From a virus (Duplodnaviria > Caudoviricetes): DNA of 64,000 nt. The notes beneath the pieces were generated by a model, which was not told the DNA's origin, made no database searches, and saw only the letters and a list, made by a program, of their open reading frames with translations. The position numbers and the translations under genes are program-made. Where the stretch lies: IMG/VR virus record IMGVR_UViG_3300044799_000048, positions 228-64,227 of that record; one strand, given 5' to 3'. This document shows, one piece after another, positions 1 through 56,013 of the stretch (its first letter is position 1; the number at the start of each line of letters is the position of its first letter).

Positions 1-1723
1 CCATAGAGGGTTGCCCTTGCGGTGGCATGCCAGGAGAATTTTGTTGAGGACTCGGAGGCGCGCCTTGCGTGACACTCTGTACCAAGGACGGATCAAACTC
101 GCCCATAGCCTCACGGATTGCAGTCTGTCTAAGTGTCTGATCCTGCATGGCGTCTTCTTCAAGTTGCCTCTCTTCTTCCTGTTCTGGATCGTCAACGTCA
201 AGGTAATTCTCCTGAAGTGTCCTGGTAGGTAGAAGGCGACTCTGTTTCAACTGCATAGCGGCGGCAACTTTCCTAGACTCGTCCTGCGGAAACTTAGCGG
301 CGATCTTCACGTCGACGCGAAACCCTTGCATCTGGCTACCCCTGATAGGAAGGGCAAAGGGTTTGTCATGAAGACGACCGTAGACCTGCAAATTGACGTT
401 GGAAGCGAACTGTGCAGTAAGCGAAAGGGCCTTTCGGAAGACCATCGACCAGAACCGTTCCAGATTCTTCTGAAATTGGTTGAGTCGAATCCTTCCACTA
501 TCAGTCAATTGAGAGATTGCGTATCCAGAAGTCGCATTTGCTCCTTCACCGTAGGCAACAGACGGGAATGAACCTTCTTGAATCGAGTTTTCTGCGTTTG
601 TAAGTTCCATTCGCACATCAGGAGGAGTTCCAGGCCACGTTGGGAACCCAAATTCTTCTCCGGTCTCAAGGTGCGTCACATTTCCGAGTATTGCATCGAA
701 AATCGGCTTCTCACGACCGGGATTGGTCCGAATAAATGGCGGAAGTGCAGCATAAAGCATAACTAGACGACGATGTTGGATCAATTGCACTTCGTAGTCA
801 AGAATTGCATTTGCAGTCGGGTAAAGTAGACTCAAACCAGTCTCTTCCGGCTCAACAGAGGTCGTCAAACGCCCACAACCGAATGTAAACGGAAGGTCGT
901 CGTATCCTTCCATGATCTCTGGCTGGCGAATCCACTTGTTATCGGCAATAACAGCGTTTACAACTACTTCCTGGCCAAGTTTCTTGACCTTCGGCTCGTC
1001 TTGAGGACTTTGCGACGTGTCCGGTTCAGAATCGTTAGCAAATTCGAACCCCCAATAGTCAATATAGTCTACTTCTGTCCGTTCTCGGTTCTCATTTGAG
1101 TACCCGAGGTCAACTCCCCACTCGTCTTCGATGTCAGAAATGAGTCTTCGACACGAATAGATGACTTGTTTGTTGCCCCTACGTCCCCCGGTAACCGGAA
1201 AGACGTTCTTGATATCAAGAATTGTGAGGTCAAGCGGCAATTCAGAGAACGTTAGACCCGGTGTTCCCATTTCGCCAGGTGTTTGTGTAGGTTCCGCGTC
1301 ACTGTTCCATGTCTGATAAACCACAACCTGTCCGTCGAGGAGTGCATTGAAGATCGCCTGCACTTCAATATCAGACCCCTGCCGCTCGTCATTGATGTAA
1401 AGCAGACCTCGGAGGAACTTGATAACGTTCTGCGCCTCTTTCTGAGAGTCCTGCGTCTCATCAACAACCCGGTACGCCCGAATCTTCATCGGATTGGACG
1501 AAAGAATACCCACTCCCAAGTCAACGATGTTCGTCGCCTTGTTGGAAGTAATCATCTCCGTCCCCGGAAGAGTAAGAACGTTACCGATGTGCGCCTGGTG
1601 TCTCAGAAAGTACAGATCGCGCATGAAGTCAATCTGATGGTTGCGCGCGCGGAACTTACTCTGAAGATCGCGCTCCAGATTGACAATGTAATTTTTAGCT
1701 TCATCCAAGTCTATTGGAAGCAT
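1..1723 (-). CDS. Portal protein (partial, runs off left edge)
   Basis: ATG at 1723 directly after the terL stop. Reads MLPIDLDEAKNYIVNLERDLQSKFRARNHQIDF... and is still in frame at position 1 with a Pro/Gln-rich tail (PSPQQNSPGMPPQGQPSM). Absent from the ORF track, consistent with no stop in the window. Size (>570 aa) and position after terL fit a portal. Confidence 0.8.
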   Translation of the reverse strand, partial: MLPIDLDEAKNYIVNLERDLQSKFRARNHQIDFMRDLYFLRHQAHIGNVLTLPGTEMITSNKATNIVDLGVGILSSNPMKIRAYRVVDETQDSQKEAQNVIKFLRGLLYINDERQGSDIEVQAIFNALLDGQVVVYQTWNSDAEPTQTPGEMGTPGLTFSELPLDLTILDIKNVFPVTGGRRGNKQVIYSCRRLISDIEDEWGVDLGYSNENRERTEVDYIDYWGFEFANDSEPDTSQSPQDEPKVKKLGQEVVVNAVIADNKWIRQPEIMEGYDDLPFTFGCGRLTTSVEPEETGLSLLYPTANAILDYEVQLIQHRRLVMLYAALPPFIRTNPGREKPIFDAILGNVTHLETGEEFGFPTWPGTPPDVRMELTNAENSIQEGSFPSVAYGEGANATSGYAISQLTDSGRIRLNQFQKNLERFWSMVFRKALSLTAQFASNVNLQVYGRLHDKPFALPIRGSQMQGFRVDVKIAAKFPQDESRKVAAAMQLKQSRLLPTRTLQENYLDVDDPEQEEERQLEEDAMQDQTLRQTAIREAMGEFDPSLVQSVTQGAPPSPQQNSPGMPPQGQPSM

Positions 1724-19418: not shown

Positions 19419-20358
19419 CTTCATCCTCCGGTTCTGGCAACTCAACTTTCACAGCGACTTGCATTCCACAGTGGTGGCAAAATATCACACCATTCTCTTT
19501 GGGGCTACCATTCATGAATTGCCACTTCTCACCACACGTCGTATCCCACGAATCAGTGTCTTCGTCGTAAGACCATACACAGAATTTCATGTTCCCCCCT
19601 AAACCACTTGCTACAATTAGGACACACATCTATAATGTCCCCATTTTTATTCAGCCGAACAGTCCATTCAGAAAGACTCTTTCGTGCTCGGTTCAATTCT
19701 GCAAGTTCTTCTACGGCATCCCATCCCTCACGACTGAACTTCTTACCATCAATACTAACTTTCAATCTGAAACTTCCATTTATAAACTGGTGGCAGATGT
19801 CACACTCATAGTTAAATGTTACGTTAATTGATTTAAGCATGTCATATCTCTGGTATCTCAATCTCTATTGTGCGCCTGCCGTCAAGAATATCACGCACCA
19901 TATCTACAATGTGTCGCTTCTTACTCTCTTGAATATTGAGCCAGCTTAACCAGTACGTAAGTTGATCGAAGTCGGCCTCGGCTTCAACCCTTGCCCGTGC
20001 AATTACCGCAGTCCAGTTCTGTTTGGCGGGAGTGTGTCCACAATTGTACTCGCGACGGTATTTAGAACTACCCGCAGCAATTTGGGTTACTCTAATGATG
20101 TCGAATACTTGGGCCGCAGCGAGGGCCGCCATAGGATCAGTCAAAGTCCACCATCTTCTTTAGTTCATCGAATATCTTCAGACTAACTATAGTAAACTCT
20201 CCCTCGCCATGATACGGCGCCTCTACTTCTTTTAGCGTCTTAATAACTACGACGCGCAGTGCGTCGTAGTTTGCCTTCAGGGCGTTGTACTTTGTCGCCA
20301 TCTCTGATTCTAATGCTCCGTGATCGTCATAGTTATTCATACCCGCCTCCATGAGGGA

Positions 20359-47434: not shown

Positions 47435-48835
47435 TCAATAACTACTAAAGCAACGTTTACACAATGGCAGTTCCTTCTTCTTACCTGCTATATGCTTTGC
47501 TCTCAGTTTCTCAAAAAGACGCCCACGCCAAACTTGGGAAACGTTGTTCTCAAACACATTGCCAAGCGTCATTTCTGCATTCCAATCTTGACAACACATT
47601 ACCACCTGCCCGTCGGTGTGGACTATTAAATTTTTGAACGGTTGGTGACACGGAAGATCGTCGCTCGCATCCATGAGAGCACCCTTGCCATCTCTGTTCT
47701 CACGCGGAACCCAAGTAAGAAGCACTCCATTTCCGCCCCACACTTTAGGCATCAACGGTATTTCGTGAATGTTCTCAGCTTGGGCAACCATATGTATTCT
47801 GACTTCACACTTGCCCCCCGCTTCTTCAATGAATCCGTGGACGTTCCTATAAGTCTGATCGAAGTTCAACCCAAGGCGAATTTTCTCATACGTCTCTTTA
47901 GTAGCGCCATCAATACTGAAAGCAATAGACTTCAACCCTGCATCAAGTAGTCCCCTTGCGCGCTCCCTAGTCATCAATGAACCGTTAGTAAAGAAAAACG
48001 CATTCGCACCATGTTTAGTTATATACTCGACACGTTCTTCCAAACACTTGTCAATCAGGGGTTCGCCGTATTGGGCCAGATTGAAGAACCTTGTGCCCAT
48101 ATCAACCGCCTCATCTACCACCCGTTGAAAGTTAAGTTGTGGCATATAGGATAGACGGGAGATTCGCTCGTGCGGGCACATGATGCAACGTGCATTGCAT
48201 AGGCTTGTAACTTCACAGTTAACAGATTCAAGTTCTACCTTGGTGTCAAACACCTTCGCCGTATTTGCCGGGATAAGTTTAGCGATATCAAGATCGCTGA
48301 ATCCCTTCACAAATACTACGATGTTATTCTTGTAGTAGTTCGCCGCGATGCTGATGTGCCCTATCCTAGATCGCAGGCAATCTACTAACTCAAATCCATG
48401 TTTCTCGAAACGTTCTTTCCAGTAAGAAAGAGGTTGTAGGTTGATGTGGTTCTCACCGACTTGCCCTGGGGGAGCAGCGGAAAATACAATAACATTCGAC
48501 GCGTTACAAAGAATAGACACCAACTGCTCCCCCGCCGACTCAGATAGATGCTCTGCTGTTTCCAGAGACATCGCCATATCAAATTTACGGTCAAGTGTGA
48601 ATGGTTGTTCAAGGTCTGCAAGGATGTGCGGAACGATTGGTTTTGCCCACGGCCCATCTATCCCAAGTACATCTATTCCACCTTGCATGAAAACTTGTAA
48701 CCATAGTCCCTGTCCACAACCAACATCCAAAATAGAAGACGGGTGGAAAAGTTTCACAATAATAGGAACGATCGCTTGCGCCGAACAGAACGAGTCCCCC
48801 GCATTTTCTCCATAGAACTGTTTGTCATAACTCAT
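47435..48835 (-). CDS. SAM methyltransferase fused to a radical SAM / SPASM(Twitch) domain
   Basis: ILDVGCGQG...SLETAEH; CNARCIMC (CxxxCxxC), YGEP, TNG, SIDG; CHQPF...DGQVVMCCQD...CKRC. Confidence 0.9.
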   Translation of the reverse strand: MSYDKQFYGENAGDSFCSAQAIVPIIVKLFHPSSILDVGCGQGLWLQVFMQGGIDVLGIDGPWAKPIVPHILADLEQPFTLDRKFDMAMSLETAEHLSESAGEQLVSILCNASNVIVFSAAPPGQVGENHINLQPLSYWKERFEKHGFELVDCLRSRIGHISIAANYYKNNIVVFVKGFSDLDIAKLIPANTAKVFDTKVELESVNCEVTSLCNARCIMCPHERISRLSYMPQLNFQRVVDEAVDMGTRFFNLAQYGEPLIDKCLEERVEYITKHGANAFFFTNGSLMTRERARGLLDAGLKSIAFSIDGATKETYEKIRLGLNFDQTYRNVHGFIEEAGGKCEVRIHMVAQAENIHEIPLMPKVWGGNGVLLTWVPRENRDGKGALMDASDDLPCHQPFKNLIVHTDGQVVMCCQDWNAEMTLGNVFENNVSQVWRGRLFEKLRAKHIAGKKKELPLCKRCFSSY

Positions 48836-49302
48836 GGGATTTTCCTGAGAAGAAAGTGAAGGCCATGCTCAAGAACCGCTTCTGATTTTATGATGTGAAA
48901 CCGGCACGATGAATAGTGAGGCAATAACTGGCACAGGAGTCTGTCGGGATCAAAGTAGTCCATCGAGAGATAGGTGAAGAACATAGTATGTGTCGGGTCT
49001 ACAAAAGCCTGGGCGGTCGTGGCGTCTGGAACTTGACAGGCAAACTGTCCGTTGGGAACTAAGACACGCCAAACCTCTTCCATCACTTCAATGAAAGAAC
49101 CAGATGTAAGATGCTCAAGACTATCGCGCATAACAATCGCTTCTGCTGTACTGTCAAGCCAAGGCCAGGGTTTCTTGTTAAGATCGCATTGAAGAAAGTC
49201 CTTGCCCTCGACGCGTTCTGGAAACCTAACTCTTATATCTACCTTGTCAACGTTGAGAAAGTCATCCAGAAGAAGAATGCCACATCCAAGATTAAGTTTC
49301 AT
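48832..49302 (-). CDS. Class I SAM-dependent methyltransferase
   Basis: KLNLGCG...NVD...LEHL...MEEVWRVL.PNG...DPTH. Confidence 0.9.
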   Translation of the reverse strand: MKLNLGCGILLLDDFLNVDKVDIRVRFPERVEGKDFLQCDLNKKPWPWLDSTAEAIVMRDSLEHLTSGSFIEVMEEVWRVLVPNGQFACQVPDATTAQAFVDPTHTMFFTYLSMDYFDPDRLLCQLLPHYSSCRFHIIKSEAVLEHGLHFLLRKIP

Positions 49303-49625
49303 GAAAGTTTCACTTCATTCACATGAAATGGGGCGTGTTCAGGACAATAACACCTGGCGTTATCATCACATTCAAGATCGCCACCTTCTGAGTCCTCAAT
49401 ATCAAAAAAGCCCCACTTTAAATCAGGCCAGAGTATAAGTTTGGGGGTCACGCGTTTTCCCATACCATCAATGAATAACCAATCTTCCCATTTGCTAGCA
49501 TCTTCTTCGTCGTAACTAGTAAGATTGTCGATGAAATCTGGATATGGCCCGCACCTATCATCATCGCAAACCCAAGTATCAGTGTCTTCATCATCACTGC
49601 CACCAGAACTCCAACCATGTCCCAT
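49299..49625 (-). CDS. Acidic Cys-containing hypothetical protein
   Basis: CDDDRC ... CYCPEH; AAGGAG RBS. Confidence 0.55.
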   Translation of the reverse strand: MGHGWSSGGSDDEDTDTWVCDDDRCGPYPDFIDNLTSYDEEDASKWEDWLFIDGMGKRVTPKLILWPDLKWGFFDIEDSEGGDLECDDNARCYCPEHAPFHVNEVKLS

Positions 49626-49636
49626 GTTATTCTCCT

Positions 49637-50836
49637 TTAACTCAACCAGCGTTCTGTTTCAGATTCGGAGTCAATCTTCTCTTGAAGAAGTGCGAGGGCC
49701 GGCACCCACGATTCCATTACGACTTTATCCGCATCCCAATTTAGGGCGTGTTCGCGAGTCTCTACTTTCATCTGCTCCCACACCGAATTGGCATTCTCTT
49801 TTAGATAATATGCTTCAAGAATCTTATCGGCTAGTTGTTCATCACTCACAACCGCTTGATAGGAGTGGTCATCTGGACAAATTACACGACTCACTGGTTC
49901 GAGAAGCCAACCATAGGTAATCTCAGTCATCGCCGTGTAGTTGGTTGCAATAACCGGAACGCCACACGCATTCGCCTCAAGGATAGGAAGTCCAAACCCC
50001 TCACCGCCGCTTGGCAGAATGAGAATGTCCATTGCGTTGTAGAGTTGAGCCATCTCCTCGCGCTGGAACCCAAGATGAAAGTTCTTAGGGCTTGTCATCG
50101 AAACGAAGTCGGCAACCCCGTTCTGCGTAATGAGGAACTCAAGGTTCAGTCCAGTAGGTGTTACTTTCGGAGCATGGAGTAGGAGTTTAATTTCAGGAAT
50201 CTTATCTTTCAAAAGCGCAATGGCATGGAAGGCCCGCTCGATTCCCTTACGGTAGTCCATATTTGCCGCGACCATTCCCACGACAAACTTGCCATCAACA
50301 CCCAGATTCTTCTTGATGATGTCTTTGTCACATGGAGTTCCATCGGGAAGAACGGTAAGCGGTTTGAAAATATTCGTGTCAGTACAAAGCGGGACAACGG
50401 TTAGGTTGTGAAATCCCTTATCTTCAAGGGCTTTCTTGGCATCTTGACACCACGGCCACAACCAGTAGGCAGTCTTGATAGAACTCGCAACCCTAACAGA
50501 GAGTGGGTGGCGGTCAATCGGAAACCACGGAACCCACCTGACACCCTTGCGAATACCGAAGGATGCAGGGATAGGCCATGCATCCCAATGAGTGATAACA
50601 ATGTCGGGGTGAAGCATGTCGGTATAGAACTCAATCACCGAATCACAGGACTGATCGAAGTCAGACCGATGCCAGCAGTCGAAATTTTCCCAAGTAGCCT
50701 TGGCACCCTCGACCCCATAATTACAGAGAAAGGTAATTTTATGTCCCAATTCCCTAAGACGCGGGGCTACAAACGAAGGAGTGGTTGCGTAGGAGCCGCT
50801 ACTCCACGGCGAATTACACACTAAAAGCAGGTTCAT
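49637..50836 (-). CDS. Glycosyltransferase family 4 (GT-B fold)
   Basis: NSPW..GSY; AANMDYRKG; LYNAMDILILPSGGEGFGLPILEANACGVPVI. Confidence 0.92.
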   Translation of the reverse strand: MNLLLVCNSPWSSGSYATTPSFVAPRLRELGHKITFLCNYGVEGAKATWENFDCWHRSDFDQSCDSVIEFYTDMLHPDIVITHWDAWPIPASFGIRKGVRWVPWFPIDRHPLSVRVASSIKTAYWLWPWCQDAKKALEDKGFHNLTVVPLCTDTNIFKPLTVLPDGTPCDKDIIKKNLGVDGKFVVGMVAANMDYRKGIERAFHAIALLKDKIPEIKLLLHAPKVTPTGLNLEFLITQNGVADFVSMTSPKNFHLGFQREEMAQLYNAMDILILPSGGEGFGLPILEANACGVPVIATNYTAMTEITYGWLLEPVSRVICPDDHSYQAVVSDEQLADKILEAYYLKENANSVWEQMKVETREHALNWDADKVVMESWVPALALLQEKIDSESETERWLS

Positions 50837-51589: not shown

Positions 51590-52120
51590 CTAGTACGTGT
51601 ATTCCAGTGTCAACATCATGACAGGAACCAACGTGCCAGAGGTCGCTGTGCTTCGGTTGAAGAACAGCGGATACGTAGCGGGAACAGTCCCCAGAGGAGT
51701 CACCGTACTGATGGAACCCATGCTCGTCTTAACGCCACCGACCAAGGTGCCGGCTGTACCAGTGTATGTGAACGGTGTCCCATAGGGAGTAACCGTTCCA
51801 GCAGTAGTACACGTCACTAGATCGTAAGCGTTGTACGACACGGCCGCACTAACGACGTTAGATGCAGCGGTGAGATAGGCGCCGGTCAGTACAATGGCCT
51901 TCGGTTTGACAAACAACGGAAGTCCAAGAACTCCCGCCGCGCCACTCGGAATGTAGAACTGTTCCGTGACCTTGTTGTTCGAGACTGTCTCCCCACCAGC
52001 TTCTAGGATTGCCTTGATTTCAGCGAGGTGTTGGTCAGCACAGACGTGCGGGCCAGTCCCACTGAATTCGTAGCCTAGAACCTTGGCGGTGATTGTCCCG
52101 GAGGTTGTGAAAGTTGCCAT
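51590..52120 (-). CDS. Capsid decoration-like protein, paralog B
   Basis: Downstream of the capsid gene; near-identical N-terminus to 52129-52662. Confidence 0.65.
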   Translation of the reverse strand: MATFTTSGTITAKVLGYEFSGTGPHVCADQHLAEIKAILEAGGETVSNNKVTEQFYIPSGAAGVLGLPLFVKPKAIVLTGAYLTAASNVVSAAVSYNAYDLVTCTTAGTVTPYGTPFTYTGTAGTLVGGVKTSMGSISTVTPLGTVPATYPLFFNRSTATSGTLVPVMMLTLEYTY

Positions 52121-52128
52121 GTTACCTC

Positions 52129-52662
52129 CTAGTAAGTGTACTCCAAAGTCAACAGGATGTTGGAGGTAGTTACGCCCGAACCAGCCGTACCCTTCTGATA
52201 AAACAGGGGATACGTCGCGGGAACGGTGCCCAATGGAGTCACTGTGTTCAACGAACCCATCGAGGTCTTTACCCCACCAACCAACGTGCCCGCAGTCCCG
52301 CCCGTATAAGAGAACGGTGTCCCATACGGCGTAACAGTTCCAGCCGTAGTGAACGTCACAAGACTGTGAGTGCAGTAGTTGTCAGCGTGCCCAACGATAT
52401 TGGCCGCGGCCGTGATGTAAGCGCCGGTCAACACGATAGCATGGGGTTTGACAAAGAGGGGTTGACCGATGTTAGCAGCAGCCTGGCCAAGAACGTAGAA
52501 CTGTTCAGTCACCTTGTTAGCCGAAACGGTTTCGCCACCGGCCTCCAAGATAGCCTTGATCTCAGCCATGTGCTGATCGCCACACACATGCGGCCCCGTG
52601 CCAGAAAACTCGTAACCAAGAATCTTAGCTGTGATCGTTCCAGAGGTAGTAAATGTAGCCAT
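52129..52662 (-). CDS. Capsid decoration-like protein, paralog A
   Basis: Immediately after the capsid stop; MATFTTSGTITAK.LGYEFSGTGPHVC. Confidence 0.65.
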   Translation of the reverse strand: MATFTTSGTITAKILGYEFSGTGPHVCGDQHMAEIKAILEAGGETVSANKVTEQFYVLGQAAANIGQPLFVKPHAIVLTGAYITAAANIVGHADNYCTHSLVTFTTAGTVTPYGTPFSYTGGTAGTLVGGVKTSMGSLNTVTPLGTVPATYPLFYQKGTAGSGVTTSNILLTLEYTY

Positions 52663-52673
52663 TATACCACCCC

Positions 52674-55308
52674 CTATCCCAGACTAACGCCGTGGCGAAT
52701 CGCAACCATGAAGTCCTGGTTGAGAATCTTTGCCACGAACGTAGTCTTCCAGCCGATGCTTCCGCGCTGATTCAAGGGATCCTCAGCGCCGCCGCCACCG
52801 ACCGGTTTGATAATCATCGACACGGGATTGACCTTCTTGCCAGTGCCAGACGAATCGCCGCCAGCCGTTGTAGCTGGAACCGACCCGAACATGTCACCAG
52901 CGAGACCGCCGATACCGTAGGCATTCTTGCCCAGGATCAACGTGGTCATCACACGTTCCGAAGATGTATTCGCCACAAGACCCAAGTCAGTCGCCCGACT
53001 CGACACGTACCAGTCAACTCCAAGCCACGTCGCAAACTTGTACGTCGCGAGAGGATTGTTCTTGCCAGGCTCGGTCGCATACAGGGCCGTGTTGATGAAT
53101 GTACTGTCCTGCATGAGGTCAAATTTTGTCTTCGGATGTATGATTCCCACGTAGTTCGCGCCCTGGATCGGACGCGCGTTGTTGGTTTCCAACGTAGACA
53201 ATGCTTCCATTACTTCAGCCGCCGTCAGCGTCATCGTTCCACGAAGTGTATCGTTCGTGGTGGCGGTGGAGGCGTACTGAATTGTGGTCGCCGCGGCTAG
53301 GATGGCGCGAGTCAGTTCGTCTACTGTTAAACCAGCCTGCTCCGACCTGTTACTTTCTAACCATCGTGATTTGACAAGATTTGAGTTCTATGATATACTT
53401 GGTGATAATACATTATGGAGGTGTTTCATGAACGTGTATGGGCGTCCAAGAAAGTGGCATATCCCCACGCGAGAACAATTGTATCAGGATTATCTTGTTG
53501 ATCGTCTGTCTATTGATGAACTAAGAGATAAGTGGGGTTGCTATGAAAGTTGGGTAAAGAAATTGGGAATTCCCCTTCGGGGGTATCCAGTGAAAGATGT
53601 ACAACGCAAACGATTTACACCCTCACAACTACAAATTGTGTATGGTGTCGTTCTTGGTGACGGTTATCTAAACATCCCCAAGGGATGTAGGTGGCCGCAA
53701 CTTTCCATAGAACACTCTGTATTACAAGAAGAGTATGTTATCTGGTTAAGAGAAAAACTCGAACCATTCTCTGGAAAGTTAGAACGATATGCCGCACGCC
53801 AAAATGTGTATAAAGGAAGAACCATCTTTGGTAAGGGGTCTGTTAGGTTTAGAACGTGTGCCCATCCGGAACTATTACCAATCTATGAAGAATGTTATCC
53901 GAATAAAGTACGTCATATTACCGCGGAACACTTAGAAAAGATGGATGCGCCGGCAGTTGCGGTTCTATTCATGGATGACGGATGTAATAGCGATCTAAAT
54001 AAGGGTATTTGTTTTTCAACCGGAGAACATCCTATTGAAGAACAACGTATCCTATCAGATTGGTTTCTTTCTCAGTGGGGCCTTGTTAATACTATTAGAC
54101 ACCAAAAAGAATGCGGGTATCGCATTACATTCTATGGGAAAAGTGCAAGGGGACTATTAAGTTTGATTGAGCCATACATAGCACCAAGTATGCTATACAA
54201 ATTACACGGTGGCGGGTAGTCAATTTCTGCTACCTCTTACAGTTCGTTTCCTGTAAGTCCAGATCATCGTTTCACCTTACGGTGTCTTCTCGCTTGATCG
54301 TTGCTGCTGCACGCTTTCGCTGCTTGCATCGGGTAACCATCACAGGCGTTCCCGTTATTCAGAGAAGATTTAGGCTCGGCAAATTAGTTTATTCGGCTAC
54401 CGAGCAACTCACTCTCCTCGGTCACAATAGGATCGATGGACAGTTTGTCGATCAGGTCACTGTGCTGAATCCACGCGCCGTACTGATCTACGGTAGCGGT
54501 GATCGCGGTCGGGCTGATACTCACGCCGATGGGGGTCACGCCTTCGGAAAGGGGCGTGGTCGCGACCGCGAGAGAACCAAACTTCAATCTGTTACTTTAG
54601 GATTTGCATATTCTCAAGAATTGTGTTATGATAGTCAATCAATGGAGGTGTTTATGGTTTCAGAAACTTATTTTGTCATAACGTGTAAAAACTGCGGACA
54701 CGAGGCCCACAAACCAATGGGTAGTTGGCACGATGCAGAAGTATCCGTAGAACGAGGCGGCTGGAAATTTGTCCGTGGTGCTAAATCCCTTACTGGTGAT
54801 TGGTATTGTACCAATTGTCTAAGGGAGGCGGATTCTGCTGAAGATTATGCCATTCGGTGTGGATGGATGAAACCGCCGCGCCCATCATTCTGGAAACGTA
54901 TCGGTGCAGTCTTTTTTGATTGAATATGCAAACGGGTAGCCATTTCTGCTACCTCTCCACCTTCAAATGTTATACGTGGAGTTCAGAGCACATCATCATC
55001 CTTACGGATGTCTCGTCTATGCTCGTTACGCACTTCCCTTTCGGGGTTGGTTCGGTATTGCCCACTCCTGGGTGTCCACCGAGTTAGCGAGATTTTCAGA
55101 TACCGTTTCCGGTATAGGCCGCTAGTTATTAACGGAAGTTAACTGTAAGACCCTGATGGTCGGGAATCTGGAAGGAGCGGCCCTTCTGACCGAACTGGGC
55201 ATGAACCAAGTTCGGAAGGGCACGTTCCAAGAGAGTCTTGTCATAAAACGCTGCTACCTGTTCGGCACTCCAGCCTGAAGCGCCATAGGTCTGTGTAGTT
55301 GTTGCCAT
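52674..55308 (-). CDS. Major capsid protein, N4-gp56-like; three exons 55308-55132, 54584-54399 and 53342-52674 (343 aa spliced)
   Basis: In-frame joins give ...YDKTLLERALPNLVHAQFGQ...TVNFR|KFGSLAVATTPLSEGVTP...QYG...SELLG|EQAGLTVDELTR...HP....DL...DPLNQRGSIGWK; exons of 177, 186 and 669 nt; GGAGG RBS; follows the scaffold gene. Confidence 0.92.
53371..53399 (+). promoter_or_regulatory. Antisense sigma70 promoter inside intron 2
   Basis: TTGACA-17 nt-TATACT with TGn extension; GGAGGTG RBS before ATG 53428. Confidence 0.8.
53428..54219 (+). CDS. LAGLIDADG homing endonuclease, antisense to its intron
   Basis: QIVYGVVLGDGYL and AVAVLFMDDG motifs; HTH-like N-terminus; 263 aa from the RBS-supported ATG. 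Confidence 0.9.
   Translation: MNVYGRPRKWHIPTREQLYQDYLVDRLSIDELRDKWGCYESWVKKLGIPLRGYPVKDVQRKRFTPSQLQIVYGVVLGDGYLNIPKGCRWPQLSIEHSVLQEEYVIWLREKLEPFSGKLERYAARQNVYKGRTIFGKGSVRFRTCAHPELLPIYEECYPNKVRHITAEHLEKMDAPAVAVLFMDDGCNSDLNKGICFSTGEHPIEEQRILSDWFLSQWGLVNTIRHQKECGYRITFYGKSARGLLSLIEPYIAPSMLYKLHGGG
54604..54632 (+). promoter_or_regulatory. Antisense sigma70 promoter inside intron 1
   Basis: TTGCAT-17 nt-TATGAT with TGn extension; GGAGGTG RBS before ATG 54654. Confidence 0.65.
54654..54923 (+). CDS. Small zinc-finger protein (89 aa), antisense cargo of intron 1
   Basis: CKNC...GW...WYCTNC; strong RBS; no LAGLIDADG, HNH or GIY-YIG motif visible. Confidence 0.75.
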   Translation: MVSETYFVITCKNCGHEAHKPMGSWHDAEVSVERGGWKFVRGAKSLTGDWYCTNCLREADSAEDYAIRCGWMKPPRPSFWKRIGAVFFD

Positions 55309-55317
55309 GAAATCCTC

Positions 55318-56013
55318 CTAGAGGTCAGAGGCAGGCAACCCCCCTTGTTTTCCACGTTGAATCACGAGGTCGCGTTCTTCGTGTGTCATACTGTCCCACT
55401 TTGCCATAATGCCAGAAGCGGGTGCCCCCTGTCTGTTAAGTGAAACCTTGGGGGCCTGCGGAGGTGCCTGCGTGCGTAGTCTGTTTGATTCGCGCATGTA
55501 TTCTGTAATGAACCGCCCCAACTCCTGCGGGCTTGAAGCGTGTGACTCTGCTTCTGCACGAGAGATACCGACGGACATGGCGGCCTGAATAGACCGCTGT
55601 TGTTCTTCGTATCCCCTGCGCTCAGCTTCCTGGGCCTGCATTCGCTGATTCAGTTGTGCAATTTCATTGTCGCGTTTCTGTAATTCGAGTTGAAAGTCGT
55701 ATGCCTTCTTCTGATCCGGCTCCATACCGGCCGTTTCAAGTTTGTACAACTTCTCCTTATCAGCAAGCATTTCCTGATTCATCTGCTGGATATAGGCGTT
55801 GTACTGTGCCTGAAGATCGGCTTGACGGCGCTGTTCAGAAGCGCGAACGGCGTCCAAGTCCTTACGCGGGACAAGCGGCTCATCGCTAGGCGTAACGGCG
55901 GGCGTCGGTTCTACAACCCCACCTCCCTGATCGGGCGTCGTCTCTACAACCGGTTCTTCTACTGGCGCTTCTACAACCCCGGGGGCACCTGCAACTGCAT
56001 TTGTATCTACCAT
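55318..56013 (-). CDS. Capsid scaffolding protein
   Basis: Acidic Pro-rich N-terminus and coiled coil; immediately upstream of the capsid gene. Confidence 0.7.
   Translation of the reverse strand: MVDTNAVAGAPGVVEAPVEEPVVETTPDQGGGVVEPTPAVTPSDEPLVPRKDLDAVRASEQRRQADLQAQYNAYIQQMNQEMLADKEKLYKLETAGMEPDQKKAYDFQLELQKRDNEIAQLNQRMQAQEAERRGYEEQQRSIQAAMSVGISRAEAESHASSPQELGRFITEYMRESNRLRTQAPPQAPKVSLNRQGAPASGIMAKWDSMTHEERDLVIQRGKQGGLPASDL

What the first reader, a model, noticed from the sequence alone, without database searches (positions are those of the whole stretch)
54603..54932. Intron 1 carries a non-nuclease zinc-finger cargo enclosed by an 11-bp inverted repeat
Seen: TTTGCATATTC (54603-54613) and GAATATGCAAA (54922-54932) form a perfect stem. 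Its loop contains the rest of the promoter, the RBS and an intact 89-aa CxxC...CxxC ORF. The -35 box lies in one arm and the stop codon overlaps the edge of the other. The protein has no recognisable homing-endonuclease motif and does not look like a LAGLIDADG remnant; it resembles small phage zinc-finger proteins (compare 19553-19861 and 49299-49625). Inference: the intron acts as a vehicle for a passenger gene (anti-defence, regulator or splicing factor), and may spread by co-conversion when the intron-2 endonuclease cuts about 186 nt away in an intronless allele.
Basis: partly seen in the sequence, partly recalled or inferred. Interest (0 to 1): 0.78.

Follow-up and report, generated by a model that had tools for sequence, protein, structure and literature searches.

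The report
Capsid intron carrying orphan zinc-finger gene
The inverted repeat is an ordinary stem of a self-splicing intron in a phage capsid gene, closing the loop where related introns carry a backwards DNA-cutting enzyme gene; here that loop holds a small zinc-finger gene with no known relatives and no known function.

Summary
The 11-bp repeat, the 89-aa 2xCxxC ORF, the -35 box in one arm and the stop codon touching the other are all at the stated coordinates.

The repeat is not a cargo boundary. It is helix P9.2 of a group I intron (54585-55131, minus strand) in an N4-gp56-type major capsid gene. I found 96 further copies of this intron family (68 distinct). P9.2 is either a short hairpin or closes a 660-950-nt loop. 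All 17 such loop ORFs scanned are LAGLIDADG genes antisense to the intron. In 12 of the 15 checked, the promoter's -35 box sits at the 3' arm of the stem.

Intron 1 uses the same slot, orientation and promoter position, but holds an orphan. It looks coding: best of six frames, and 2 CxxC in 1% of random ORFs. Its function is unresolved.

Spread by the neighbouring intron-2 LAGLIDADG enzyme, 186 nt away, is plausible and has a T4 precedent, but is untested.

This scan had already noted backwards LAGLIDADG capsid introns in other genomes, and one backwards zinc-finger cargo in a giant-virus capsid intron.

The parts
55132..55308 (-). Major capsid gene exon 1 (59 codons, ends ...VNFR, last base U)
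   Evidence: tblastn of intact 336-aa N4-gp56-type homologues P0002 and P0003; sequence
54585..55131 (-). Group I intron 1 (547 nt). It starts with TAATAA, in-frame stops right after the 5' splice site, and ends with G at 54585.
   Evidence: Exon junctions from homologues. Rfam Intron_gpI over the full model length, 20.5 bits, E 0.0026 in a 251-nt search, below the gathering score of 50. Family alignment and covariation. MFE fold z -2.91.
54933..55131 (-). Ribozyme core P1-P9.1. P7 is kept by compensatory changes (GAGCA/UGCUC against the family's GACUA/UAGUC). The P9.1 hairpin lies at 54935-54953.
54922..54932 (-). P9.2 5' arm in the intron RNA (the GAATATGCAAA arm on the plus strand). It overlaps the ORF's TGA stop.
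54603..54613 (-). P9.2 3' arm in the intron RNA (the TTTGCATATTC arm on the plus strand). It contains the -35 box of the antisense promoter.
54585..54602 (-). 3' tail of the intron (UCCUAAAGUAACAGAUUG), family-conserved AGUAAYAR + 3 nt + G, ending in the terminal G
54603..54632 (+). Sigma-70-like promoter of the cargo ORF (TTTGCA/TTGCAT ... TATGAT, TG-extended)
   Evidence: the same position relative to the stem as in 12 of 15 LAGLIDADG cassettes of the family
54642..54653 (+). ATGGAGGTGTTT block containing the GGAGG ribosome-binding site (54644-48). The only other copy in the window precedes the intron-2 LAGLIDADG start (53415-26). Its ATG at 54642 is an in-frame alternative start giving the 93-aa gene call P0001.
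54654..54923 (+). Orphan 89-aa ORF with C11xxC14 and C52xxC55, antisense to the intron, filling loop L9.2
54399..54584 (-). Capsid exon 2 (62 codons, 186 nt)
53343..54398 (-). Group I intron 2 (1056 nt), same family but a different sub-lineage. Its P9.2 arms are 54205-54212 and 53361-53368 (7 of 8 pairs).
53428..54219 (+). Intron-2 cargo: 263-aa LAGLIDADG_2 homing endonuclease gene, antisense, with promoter TTGACA-17-TATACT at 53371-53399
   Evidence: Pfam E 1.2e-21; PHROG 11023; promoter 11 of 12 matches
52677..53342 (-). Capsid exon 3 (222 codons; stop at 52674-52676)

Best explanation
The window is a 64-kb phage genome. Its N4-gp56-type major capsid gene, on the minus strand, is split by two group I introns of one family.

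The 11-bp inverted repeat is helix P9.2 of intron 1. In the intron RNA it pairs the two ends of a 308-nt insert. This keeps the 18-nt 3' tail, with its terminal G, next to the catalytic core.

In this intron family the P9.2 loop is the standard slot for a gene cassette that reads backwards, antisense to the intron. The cassette carries its own bacterial-type promoter, whose -35 box sits at the 3' arm of the stem. Its ORF runs to the other arm. Normally the gene is a LAGLIDADG homing endonuclease.

In intron 1 the same slot, orientation and promoter layout are kept, but the gene is an orphan 89-aa protein with two CxxC pairs. I take it to be a real, expressed, zinc-binding small protein without nuclease activity. 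This step is inferred.

Having no endonuclease of its own, intron 1 would persist by vertical inheritance. It could also be carried into intron-less capsid alleles by repair co-conversion, when the intron-2 LAGLIDADG enzyme cuts 186 bp away. This step is also inferred.

Sub-confidences: repeat = P9.2 stem of a group I intron, about 0.9. ORF is a real protein-coding gene, about 0.6. ORF is not a nuclease, about 0.6 given that it is real. Spread by co-conversion, about 0.4.
For: Exon structure:
- Intact 336-aa homologues align to three exons. The junctions lie after U and after G, and splicing restores ...VNFR|KFGSL... and ...ELLG|EQAG....

Intron identity:
- Rfam Intron_gpI aligns over its full length to intron 1 on the minus strand (20.5 bits, E 0.0026).
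- The closest relative, L097 (69% core identity), passes the curated threshold (56.2 against 50 bits).
- RNAalifold on 8 relatives plus the two window introns gives P7, P8, P9 and P9.1. Of 28 pairs, 15 carry compensatory changes, including P7 in both window introns.
- The 11-bp stem forms in both the MFE and the centroid fold.

Family:
- The P9.1 motif finds 33 IMG/VR loci, 62 metagenome loci and 2 MAG contigs.
- In loci L081-L175 there are 96 copies, 68 of them distinct.
- P9.2 follows the motif directly. It has a 3-50-nt loop in 35 copies and a 660-950-nt loop in 23. Ten are unresolved (see the full report for the correction of L084 and L085).
- No copy has a loop of 51-659 nt.
- All 17 of 17 long-loop IMG/VR copies carry an antisense LAGLIDADG_1 ORF.
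- In 12 of 15, the best promoter match has its -35 at the tail/3'-arm junction and its -10 6-7 nt before the ATG.

ORF:
- Its coding score is 0.029 in frame, against -0.24 to -0.75 in the other five frames. That is similar to the neighbouring LAGLIDADG gene (-0.001).
- Only 1% of off-frame windows of phage genes score as high.
- An ORF of 89 codons or more arises in 117 of 5000 shuffles of the loop.
- Two CxxC motifs arise in 1961 of 200000 random ORFs of the same composition.
- The 12-mer holding the ribosome-binding site occurs only before the two intron ORFs.
- No nuclease signal was found.

Precedents:
- Exon co-conversion accompanies homing, and T4 mobE mobilises the endonuclease-defective nrdB intron (PMC2988022, passages).
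Against: - The ORF is a singleton. Only itself was found among 5.8 billion clusters and 1.84 billion representatives. The other five hits there were repeat proteins with unrelated domains. So there is no conservation evidence and dN/dS cannot be computed.
- Its codon usage is far from the phage's core genes. Only 2% of core-gene windows score as low.
- The AlphaFold model is poor (pLDDT 55.4), and no fold match was found. 'Zinc ribbon' therefore rests on the CxxC pattern alone.
- Sub-threshold Pfam zinc-ribbon hits reach at best 17.4 bits against a cut-off of 25.7.
- Absence of a recognised motif does not exclude a new or very diverged nuclease.
- The window's own intron 1 is below the Rfam gathering score, and intron 2 gave no Rfam hit.
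- There are no data on transcription, splicing or homing.
Confidence: 0.5

Rival explanations
1. The ORF is not a functional gene. It is a leftover or chance reading frame in an endonuclease-less intron whose P9.2 loop has not yet shrunk to the short hairpin seen in most family members.
For: - It has no relative anywhere.
- 35 of the 58 resolved family copies have lost, or never had, a loop gene, so loss is common.
- An ORF this long arises in 2.3% of shuffles, which is not negligible.
- Its codon usage is unlike the phage core genes.
- The structure model is poor.
Against: - The ORF runs exactly from a GGAGG-ATG just past the promoter to the far arm, filling the loop.
- It scores best of the six frames.
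- Two CxxC pairs occur by chance in about 1% of random ORFs.
- There is no trace of a decayed LAGLIDADG or HNH gene in the loop (best tblastn E 0.12).
- No other family copy has a loop of intermediate size.
Confidence: 0.28
2. The ORF is a new or extremely diverged small endonuclease, for example a His-Me/HNH-like zinc-stabilised finger acting as a dimer, that homes intron 1 into the 59|60 site by itself.
For: - It sits in the exact slot, orientation and promoter context that the family uses for homing endonucleases.
- The order CxxC - His26-Asp27 - Gly35-Gly36 - Asp49 - CxxC loosely recalls zinc-HNH spacing. This is my reading of the sequence, not a test.
- Intron 1 sits at a capsid site (59|60) where no other family copy could be placed from the approximate exon-HSP ends, so something moved it there.
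Against: - No HNH family appears among the Pfam hits at E<=1.
- hhalign against four zinc-HNH proteins from the fetched loci gives probability 1.4%.
- No histidine lies at the canonical end of the first strand of the predicted beta-beta-alpha unit, though the model is low in confidence.
- 89 aa is smaller than the homing endonucleases I can recall.
- The promoter region shows no similarity to the target junction.
Confidence: 0.15
3. The inverted repeat marks the ends of an independently mobile cassette, a terminal-inverted-repeat element or hairpin-targeted insertion, that landed in the intron.
For: A perfect 11-bp repeat flanks promoter and ORF exactly. Such a repeat anywhere in the intron arises in only 2.1% of shuffles.
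Against: - A stem at exactly this position, directly after the P9.1 motif and directly before the conserved 3' tail, is present in the 58 family copies that could be parsed. Its sequences differ but stay complementary, whether or not the loop holds a gene.
- Each arm occurs only once in the 64-kb genome.
- No transposase or target-site duplication is present.
- The -35 box at the 3' arm is a family trait.
Confidence: 0.03

Closest known systems
Mycobacteriophage LittleE major capsid gene group I intron with gp14 (Pope et al. 2013, PMC3706429; passages read)
   Same: It is a phage capsid gene split by a group I intron, with U before the 5' splice site and G at the intron end. The intron's ORF is on the bottom strand, transcribed opposite to the capsid gene. 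Splicing was shown by RT-PCR. A related ORF-less intron sits in tail genes of sister phages.
   Different: The LittleE ORF is a LAGLIDADG-type nuclease; here it is an orphan 2xCxxC protein. I did not test whether the LittleE intron belongs to the same RNA family. blastn of the whole region against the phage collection found nothing.
Uncultured-phage capsid-intron family with antisense LAGLIDADG_1 in loop L9.2
   Same: They share the P9.1 motif, the P9.2 slot, the 3' tail, the antisense orientation, the promoter at the 3' arm and the host gene family (N4-gp56-type capsid).
   Different: The cargo is 270-320-aa LAGLIDADG_1 in a 660-950-nt loop, mostly with a leaderless start, and the sense strand is kept free of stops. 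Intron 1 has a 308-nt loop, an 89-aa orphan with a Shine-Dalgarno start, stops on the sense strand, and capsid site 59|60, where I could place no other family copy from the approximate exon-HSP ends.
Phage T4 nrdB intron with the deleted, inactive I-TevIII ORF, mobilised in trans by free-standing mobE (Edgell, Gibb and Belfort 2010, PMC2988022; passages read)
   Same: Both are group I introns whose own ORF cannot home them, and which are carried along when a nearby endonuclease cuts the intron-less allele and repair co-converts flanking DNA.
   Different: The T4 ORF is a recognisable HNH remnant on the sense strand. Here no remnant is detectable, and the proposed helper is the endonuclease of a second intron 186 bp away. 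Mobility here is untested.
Nuclear rDNA group I introns with antisense His-Cys box endonuclease genes (PMC9548176; search listing and start of abstract only)
   Same: The protein gene is on the strand opposite to the intron.
   Different: Those are eukaryotic rDNA hosts with His-Cys box nucleases and spliceosomal introns in the gene. They are not phage and do not use bacterial promoters.
Fungal mitochondrial rnl group I intron that encodes ribosomal protein Rps3
   Same: It is a group I intron loop carrying a gene that is not a homing endonuclease.
   Different: It is an organellar, sense-strand gene that is conserved and essential. Here the gene is an orphan of unknown function in a phage.

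Membership tests
Group I self-splicing intron (Rfam RF00028) | Removal restores an uninterrupted host reading frame colinear with intact homologues | tested here: met
   tblastn of P0002, P0003 and P0004 gives three exons. The spliced product is 343 aa, with ...VNFRKFGSL... and ...ELLGEQAG... matching the homologues.
Group I self-splicing intron (Rfam RF00028) | U as the last exon base (U.G in P1) and G as the last intron base | tested here: met
   CGU|UAAUAA at 55132|55131 and ...AUUG|AAG at 54585|54584. GCGG downstream can pair with CCGU.
Group I self-splicing intron (Rfam RF00028) | Conserved core helices (P3-P9) supported by covariation | tested here: met
   Rfam aligns over the full model length. 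P7, P8, P9 and P9.1 appear in RNAalifold with compensatory changes in 15 of 28 pairs, including P7 of both window introns. The MFE fold shows the same hairpins.
Group I self-splicing intron (Rfam RF00028) | Score at or above the curated gathering threshold (50 bits) | tested here: inconclusive
   Intron 1 scores 20.5 bits when only its 5' 251 nt are searched, and is not detected in the 4.5-kb search. Intron 2 gives no hit. The model cannot span the 308-nt and 835-nt loop inserts. The closest relative, L097, scores 56.2 bits.
Group I self-splicing intron (Rfam RF00028) | Self-splicing activity | not testable with these tools
   No RNA run holds the sequence.
Capsid-intron family with antisense cassette in L9.2 (unnamed; defined here) | P9.1 motif AGAGGTAGCAGAAAT-N1-4-CTACCCG, followed directly by a stem and then the tail AGTAAYAR-NNN-G | tested here: met
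   Exact motif at 54933-54956 on the minus strand, the 11-bp stem, and the tail AAAGTAACAGATTG.
Capsid-intron family with antisense cassette in L9.2 (unnamed; defined here) | Loop gene antisense to the intron, promoter -35 at the 3' arm of P9.2 | tested here: met
   Unlike 12 of 15 relatives, the start is not 6-7 nt after the -10 (9 nt to the ATG at 54642, 21 nt to the ATG at 54654).
Homing endonuclease (LAGLIDADG, HNH, GIY-YIG, His-Cys box and others) | Match to a nuclease family profile or its catalytic motif | tested here: not met
   Among Pfam hits at E<=1 there are only sub-threshold zinc-finger families and no nuclease family. PHROGs gives nothing below E 0.03. hhalign against 4 zinc-HNH proteins gives probability 1.4%. 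tblastn of 18 LAGLIDADG and 4 HNH proteins against the intron gives best E 0.12.
Homing endonuclease (LAGLIDADG, HNH, GIY-YIG, His-Cys box and others) | Site-specific cleavage of the intron-less allele | not testable with these tools
   Needs a cleavage assay.
Zinc ribbon / treble-clef zinc finger | Four zinc ligands in two knuckles (CxxC ... CxxC) | tested here: met
   C11xxC14 and C52xxC55. Two such motifs occur in 1961 of 200000 random ORFs of the same composition.
Zinc ribbon / treble-clef zinc finger | Match to a curated zinc-ribbon family above its threshold | tested here: not met
   The best is Zn_ribbon_LapB, 17.4 bits against a cut-off of 25.7. All 15 Pfam hits are below their cut-offs.
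Zinc ribbon / treble-clef zinc finger | Fold: two beta-hairpins carrying the knuckles | tested here: inconclusive
   The single-sequence AlphaFold model has pLDDT 55.4 and strands at 6-10, 17-21, 37-41 and 48-52, with the second CxxC at a helix start. Foldseek finds no match at E<=0.001. VIA-align's best Z is 2.1. The Atlas's nearest clusters are small viral hypothetical proteins, score 0.92.

The most novel reading that the evidence does not exclude
In this phage a self-splicing capsid intron has had its homing-endonuclease slot taken over by an unrelated, newly arisen or very fast-evolving zinc-finger gene. The gene would be expressed from the slot's built-in backwards promoter and kept because it does something useful: for the intron (a new minimal DNA-targeting or nicking protein) or for the phage (a regulator or counter-defence factor). 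That would make this intron family a carrier of non-nuclease cargo in phages. It would parallel the backwards zinc-finger gene this scan noted in a giant-virus capsid intron.
Probability: 0.25. Interest if true: 0.7.

Novelty: new variant of a known kind. Interest (0 to 1): 0.45.

Why it matters
[quoted passage not shown] A non-nuclease gene in the endonuclease slot would show that these introns can ferry other genes between phages.

The family context found here gives a clean comparative frame for testing that idea. It comprises a capsid-gene-specialised intron, a fixed loop slot, and a backwards cassette with a promoter built into the stem.

If the ORF is only a decaying or chance frame, the case is ordinary. 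It would then be an endonuclease-less intron beside an endonuclease-bearing one. The inverted repeat itself is ordinary ribozyme structure.

Tried and rejected
- **blastn against phages.** The whole region 52600-55400 against the phage collection gave no match.
- **Rfam.** The 4.5-kb search gave only a chance lncRNA hit. Intron 2's 5' part gave nothing relevant.
- **Homologues of the ORF.** The word-indexed search found only the ORF itself. The full HMMER search returned itself plus five long repeat proteins; Pfam on four of them gave RanBP zinc-finger repeats, MBG repeats, NHL repeats and only sub-threshold fragments for P0008, and I treat all five as repeat-inflated chance hits. Back-translated scanning of viral contigs confirmed none. 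The PDB sequence search gave only Nup153 RanBP2-type fingers, at E 0.26 and 2.3.
- **Structure.** Foldseek against the PDB gave no match at E<=0.001; the top rows were zinc-bearing MCM N-domains at E above 1. VIA-align wide gave a best Z of 2.1. With the 93-aa gene call it listed small viral hypothetical clusters at score 0.92, a level that shuffled proteins reach 4-10 times in 100.
- **HNH hypothesis.** hhalign gave probability 1.4%.
- **HEG-remnant hypothesis.** tblastn gave a best E of 0.12.
- **Paralogue hypothesis (19553-19861, 49299-49625).** No hit at E<=10.
- **Operator hypothesis.** The promoters show no resemblance to the homing-site junctions: 949 of 1000 shuffles score as well for ORF1 and junction 1, and 351 of 1000 for ORF2 and junction 2.
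- **Capsid relatives in IMG/VR.** The best 80 of 499 confirmed hits are at most 40% identical, and all give contiguous matches, meaning no intron. They were therefore of no use for cargo comparison.
- **Expression and splicing.** No RNA holder is listed. The contigs laid were the likely source run, identical across the stretch, and a 225-nt fragment of exon 3 from another run. No joints were seen.
- **Earlier scan notes.** Nothing for this genome or this protein sequence.
- **Not attempted.** I built no covariance model, because the full intron exceeds the size the tool calibrates in time. I sent no complex prediction, because I make no binding claim.
Full report
**What is there**

The window is almost the whole of a 64,227-bp contig, with phage structural genes. 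On the minus strand, an N4-gp56-type major capsid gene is in three pieces. Exon 3 alone finds intact 328-336-aa homologues carrying Pfam PF25209, one of them named 'N4-gp56 family major capsid protein' by its source.

tblastn of those homologues onto the window places the exons as follows:
- residues 1-56 at 55308-55132;
- residues 57-119 at about 54584-54396;
- residues 120 to the end at 53342-52677.

Reading the sequence at the borders gives these coordinates:
- exon 1: 55308-55132, ending CGU;
- intron 1: 55131-54585, 547 nt, ending G;
- exon 2: 54584-54399, 186 nt, ending GGU;
- intron 2: 54398-53343, 1056 nt, ending G;
- exon 3: from 53342.

The joined product is 343 aa and reads ...VNFRKFGSL... 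and ...ELLGEQAG..., as the homologues do. In-frame stops follow each 5' splice site: TAATAA directly in intron 1, and TAA five codons into intron 2.

**The observation**

- The arms are 54603-54613 and 54922-54932, 11 of 11 complementary, with 308 nt between them.
- A promoter-like site lies at TTTGCA(18)/TTGCAT(17)-TATGAT, 54603-54632. It scores 9 of 12, with TG before the -10.
- GGAGG lies at 54644-48.
- The 89-aa ORF runs 54654-54923 on the plus strand, and its TGA overlaps the arm.

Promoter-like sites are not enriched in the region as a whole: 5 found against 3.3 expected. The promoter call therefore rests on its position, not on statistics. A perfect repeat of 11 nt or more somewhere in the intron appears in 105 of 5000 shuffles.

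**What the repeat is**

Intron 1 is a group I intron on the minus strand.
- Rfam's Intron_gpI model aligns over its whole length to 55141-54955. The score is 20.5 bits, E 0.0026 for that 251-nt search, below the gathering score of 50.
- The alignment places P8 at CAUCC-GUAA-GGAUG, the P7 3' strand just after it, and P9 at CUCCAC...GUGGAG.
- A hairpin GGUAGC-AGAAAUG-GCUACC follows (P9.1). Then come the 11-nt arm, the 308-nt loop, the other arm, and 18 nt ending in the terminal G.
- The MFE and centroid folds of the whole intron form all of these elements, including the 11-bp stem (z -2.91, 0 of 100 shuffles fold as well).

Intron 2 has the same P9.1 motif and the same tail, AAAGUAACAG-NNN-G. 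An 8-nt stem with one mismatch closes the loop that holds its LAGLIDADG gene.

**The family**

The motif AGAGGTAGCAGAAAT-N1-4-CTACCCG occurs in 33 IMG/VR loci, 62 metagenome loci and 2 MAG contigs.

Loci L081-L175 hold 96 copies. They collapse to 68 distinct copies when keyed on 100 nt upstream and 60 nt downstream. That script scored them as follows:
- 37 with a short P9.2 (loop of 3-50 nt);
- 21 with a 660-950-nt loop;
- 10 unresolved: 7 near a contig end, and 3 with a longer branched stem that my parser missed.

The script wrongly put L084 and L085 among the short ones. Searches show a 7-bp stem and a 929-nt loop for both. The corrected counts are 35 short and 23 long. No copy has a loop of 51-659 nt.

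The stems differ in sequence but stay complementary. Examples are CCUA/UAGG, CCAC/GUGG, CUUAAAUG/CAUUUAAG and CUUACGGUUUU/AAGACCGUAAG.

One compact relative, L097, is the closest to intron 1 at 69% core identity. It passes Rfam's curated threshold at 56.2 bits. The other six compact relatives searched there gave no hit at that threshold. L087's hit is a different neighbouring intron.

RNAalifold on 8 relatives plus the 5' parts of the two window introns recovers P7, P8, P9 and P9.1. Of 28 pairs, 15 carry compensatory changes. In P7, both window introns changed both sides and kept the pairs.

The repeat is therefore the ribozyme's P9.2 helix. It is not the boundary of an inserted element.

**The slot**

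In all 17 long-loop IMG/VR copies, the large loop ORF that matches a protein family lies antisense to the intron. All 17 match Pfam LAGLIDADG_1, best E 3.6e-15. I did not run Pfam on the seven further long-loop copies from the metagenome scan. A LAGLIDADG motif regex flagged four of them.

In 12 of the 15 cassettes examined, the best sigma-70-type match behaves the same way. Its -35 (TTGACT or one mismatch) straddles the junction of the intron's 3' tail and the P9.2 3' arm. Its -10 ends 6-7 nt before the ATG, which implies a leaderless mRNA. The other three differ: L093 and L103 have no good match in that place, and L105 has 17 nt between the -10 and the ATG.

The window's intron 2 follows the same plan with a different enzyme subfamily:
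- LAGLIDADG_2, E 1.2e-21;
- promoter TTGACA-17-TATACT next to the arm, 11 of 12;
- a Shine-Dalgarno start.

A published precedent for a backwards LAGLIDADG gene in a phage capsid intron is mycobacteriophage LittleE, where splicing was shown by RT-PCR (PMC3706429, passages). Earlier notes of this scan describe the same layout in other genomes. I treated them as leads and checked the claims on my own loci.

**The cargo of intron 1**

The slot, orientation and promoter position are kept, but the gene is different.

The ORF is an orphan.
- It found only itself in the 5.8-billion-cluster search.
- It found only itself plus five repeat-protein chance hits in the 1.84-billion HMMER search.
- Nothing turned up in viral contigs or in the 113 loci and the window itself at E<=10.

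That last result means it is not a paralogue of 19553-19861 or 49299-49625. The first of those has two CxxC pairs with a different spacing. The second has none.

No nuclease family appears.
- Pfam at E<=1 lists 15 sub-threshold, mostly zinc-finger families.
- PHROGs gives nothing better than E 0.03.
- hhalign against four zinc-HNH proteins taken from the loci gives probability 1.4%.
- 18 LAGLIDADG and 4 HNH proteins find no remnant in the intron, best E 0.12.

The single-sequence AlphaFold model is weak (pLDDT 55.4). It has two beta-hairpins, with the first CxxC in a hairpin turn and the second at the start of a helix. It matches nothing.

Evidence for a real gene:
- The in-frame coding score is 0.029, against -0.24 to -0.75 in the other five frames. 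It is close to the neighbouring LAGLIDADG gene (-0.001) and well below the core genes (0.229 +/- 0.088).
- 1% of off-frame windows score as high, and 2% of true windows score as low.
- GC3 is low (0.38), like the LAGLIDADG gene (0.34).
- An ORF this long arises in 117 of 5000 shuffles of the loop.
- Two CxxC motifs arise in 1961 of 200000 random ORFs.
- The 12-mer ATGGAGGTGTTT occurs only twice in the window, each time just before one of the two intron ORFs. At least two matches arise in 2 of 100 shuffles.

Evidence against a real gene is the lack of any conservation, the small size and the poor model.

**How it most likely works**

Shown or directly read:
- the exon-intron structure;
- the group I features;
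- the repeat as P9.2;
- the family slot and its promoter layout;
- the ORF's intactness and orphan status.

Inferred:
- The stem holds the 3' tail by the core, so splicing tolerates the insert.
- The cargo is transcribed from the plus-strand promoter independently of the capsid transcript.
- The protein binds zinc and is not a nuclease.

Intron 1 lacks a homing enzyme, so it is inherited vertically. It could also be copied into intron-less alleles when the intron-2 enzyme cuts 186 bp away and repair co-converts the flank. Exon co-conversion during homing, and trans-mobilisation of the endonuclease-defective T4 nrdB intron by mobE, are documented (PMC2988022, passages).

The two window introns are not recent duplicates. 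Their cores are 54% identical to each other. Intron 1 is 69% identical to L097, and intron 2 is 72% identical to L094b. blastn between them finds only short blocks.

**Context**

52 of the 95 loci L081-L175 have an N4-gp56-type capsid tblastn hit (E<=0.01) beside the motif on the same strand. The nearest exon HSP ends cluster in four places:
- near window-residue 17: L094 first copy, L120, L124, L135, L162;
- at 103|104: L094 second copy, read directly from its 3' exon IDK...;
- around 158-164: most LAGLIDADG_1 carriers;
- near 305: L081 and L136.

From these approximate HSP ends, no family copy can be placed at 59|60 or 121|122. Seven loci have an upstream HSP ending at residue 121. There the distance to the motif (255-275 nt) and the downstream start at 160 fit a single intron near 160 with an unaligned stretch.

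The family is thus specialised on this capsid gene family and has colonised several sites. Both window sites appear to be new for the family, as far as this HSP-based placement can show.

**Verdict**

The repeat is ordinary ribozyme structure, and the backwards self-promoted cassette is a known layout, though sparsely published. The unusual part is the cargo. An orphan two-CxxC ORF sits where the 17 long-loop relatives I scanned carry a LAGLIDADG gene; the other long-loop copies have loops of the same size, but I did not scan them all.

Whether it is a functional passenger, a new nuclease or a transient frame cannot be settled without experiments or closer relatives.

Noticed in passing
L082-L113 (15 LAGLIDADG_1 cassettes, e.g. 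L082:4261-5193, L113:6708-7622): The backwards LAGLIDADG_1 genes avoid the codons TTA, CTA and TCA: 24 in 4472 codons, or 5.4 per 1000. In 36 other long ORFs of the same contigs the figure is 20-100 per 1000. As a result, the intron-sense strand is open for about 270-320 codons in the codon-aligned frame, with 0-3 stops against 9-43 in the other antisense frames. The window's own two cassettes do not share this: 3 stops in 89 codons and 19 in 263. This may reflect selection for translation, or against Rho termination, across the insert in the capsid pre-mRNA.
   Followed up: partly
L082-L113, upstream of the LAGLIDADG_1 starts: In 12 of 15 cassettes the -10 box ends 6-7 nt before the ATG, which implies leaderless mRNAs. 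The -35 box overlaps the intron's 3' tail and P9.2 arm, so those bases serve both the ribozyme and the promoter.
   Followed up: partly
window 53415-53426 and 54642-54653: The 12-mer ATGGAGGTGTTT occurs only twice in the window, each time immediately upstream of an intron ORF start. This suggests that the two otherwise unrelated cassettes exchanged or share a translation-initiation block.
   Followed up: partly
L094 (two motif copies, 517-540 and 1002-1025, minus strand): Another uncultured phage has two introns of this family in one N4-gp56-type capsid gene, near residue 17 and at 103|104 in window numbering. Neither carries a loop gene.
   Followed up: partly
L095:1332-1742 (-): A family member with a short P9.2 carries a sense-strand zinc-HNH ORF (137 aa) in an upstream part of the intron. 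The family therefore hosts more than one endonuclease type at more than one position.
   Followed up: no
L087:3186-3440 (-): A second, different group I intron (Rfam 82.8 bits) lies about 230 nt downstream of the family copy at L087:3669-3924.
   Followed up: no
window 51590-52120 and 52129-52662 (-): Two tandem paralogous genes of 176 and 177 aa, both starting MATFTTSGTITAK..., lie directly downstream of the capsid gene. They may be duplicated decoration or minor capsid proteins.
   Followed up: no
window 47435-48835 and 49637-50836 (-): A methyltransferase, radical SAM and SPASM fusion protein (466 aa) and a family-1/4 glycosyltransferase (399 aa) sit among the structural genes.
   Followed up: no
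window 54692-54712 (-): A terminator-like hairpin followed by a T run lies on the intron-sense strand inside loop L9.2, antisense to the orphan ORF. Such sites are no more frequent here than in shuffles: 2 found, 2.2 expected.
   Followed up: no
L176, L177: Among one genome per prokaryote species, the motif occurs only in two MAG contigs of 37-40 kb, labelled Patescibacteria and Dehalococcoidia. These are probably binned phage contigs, so they give no host assignment.
   Followed up: no
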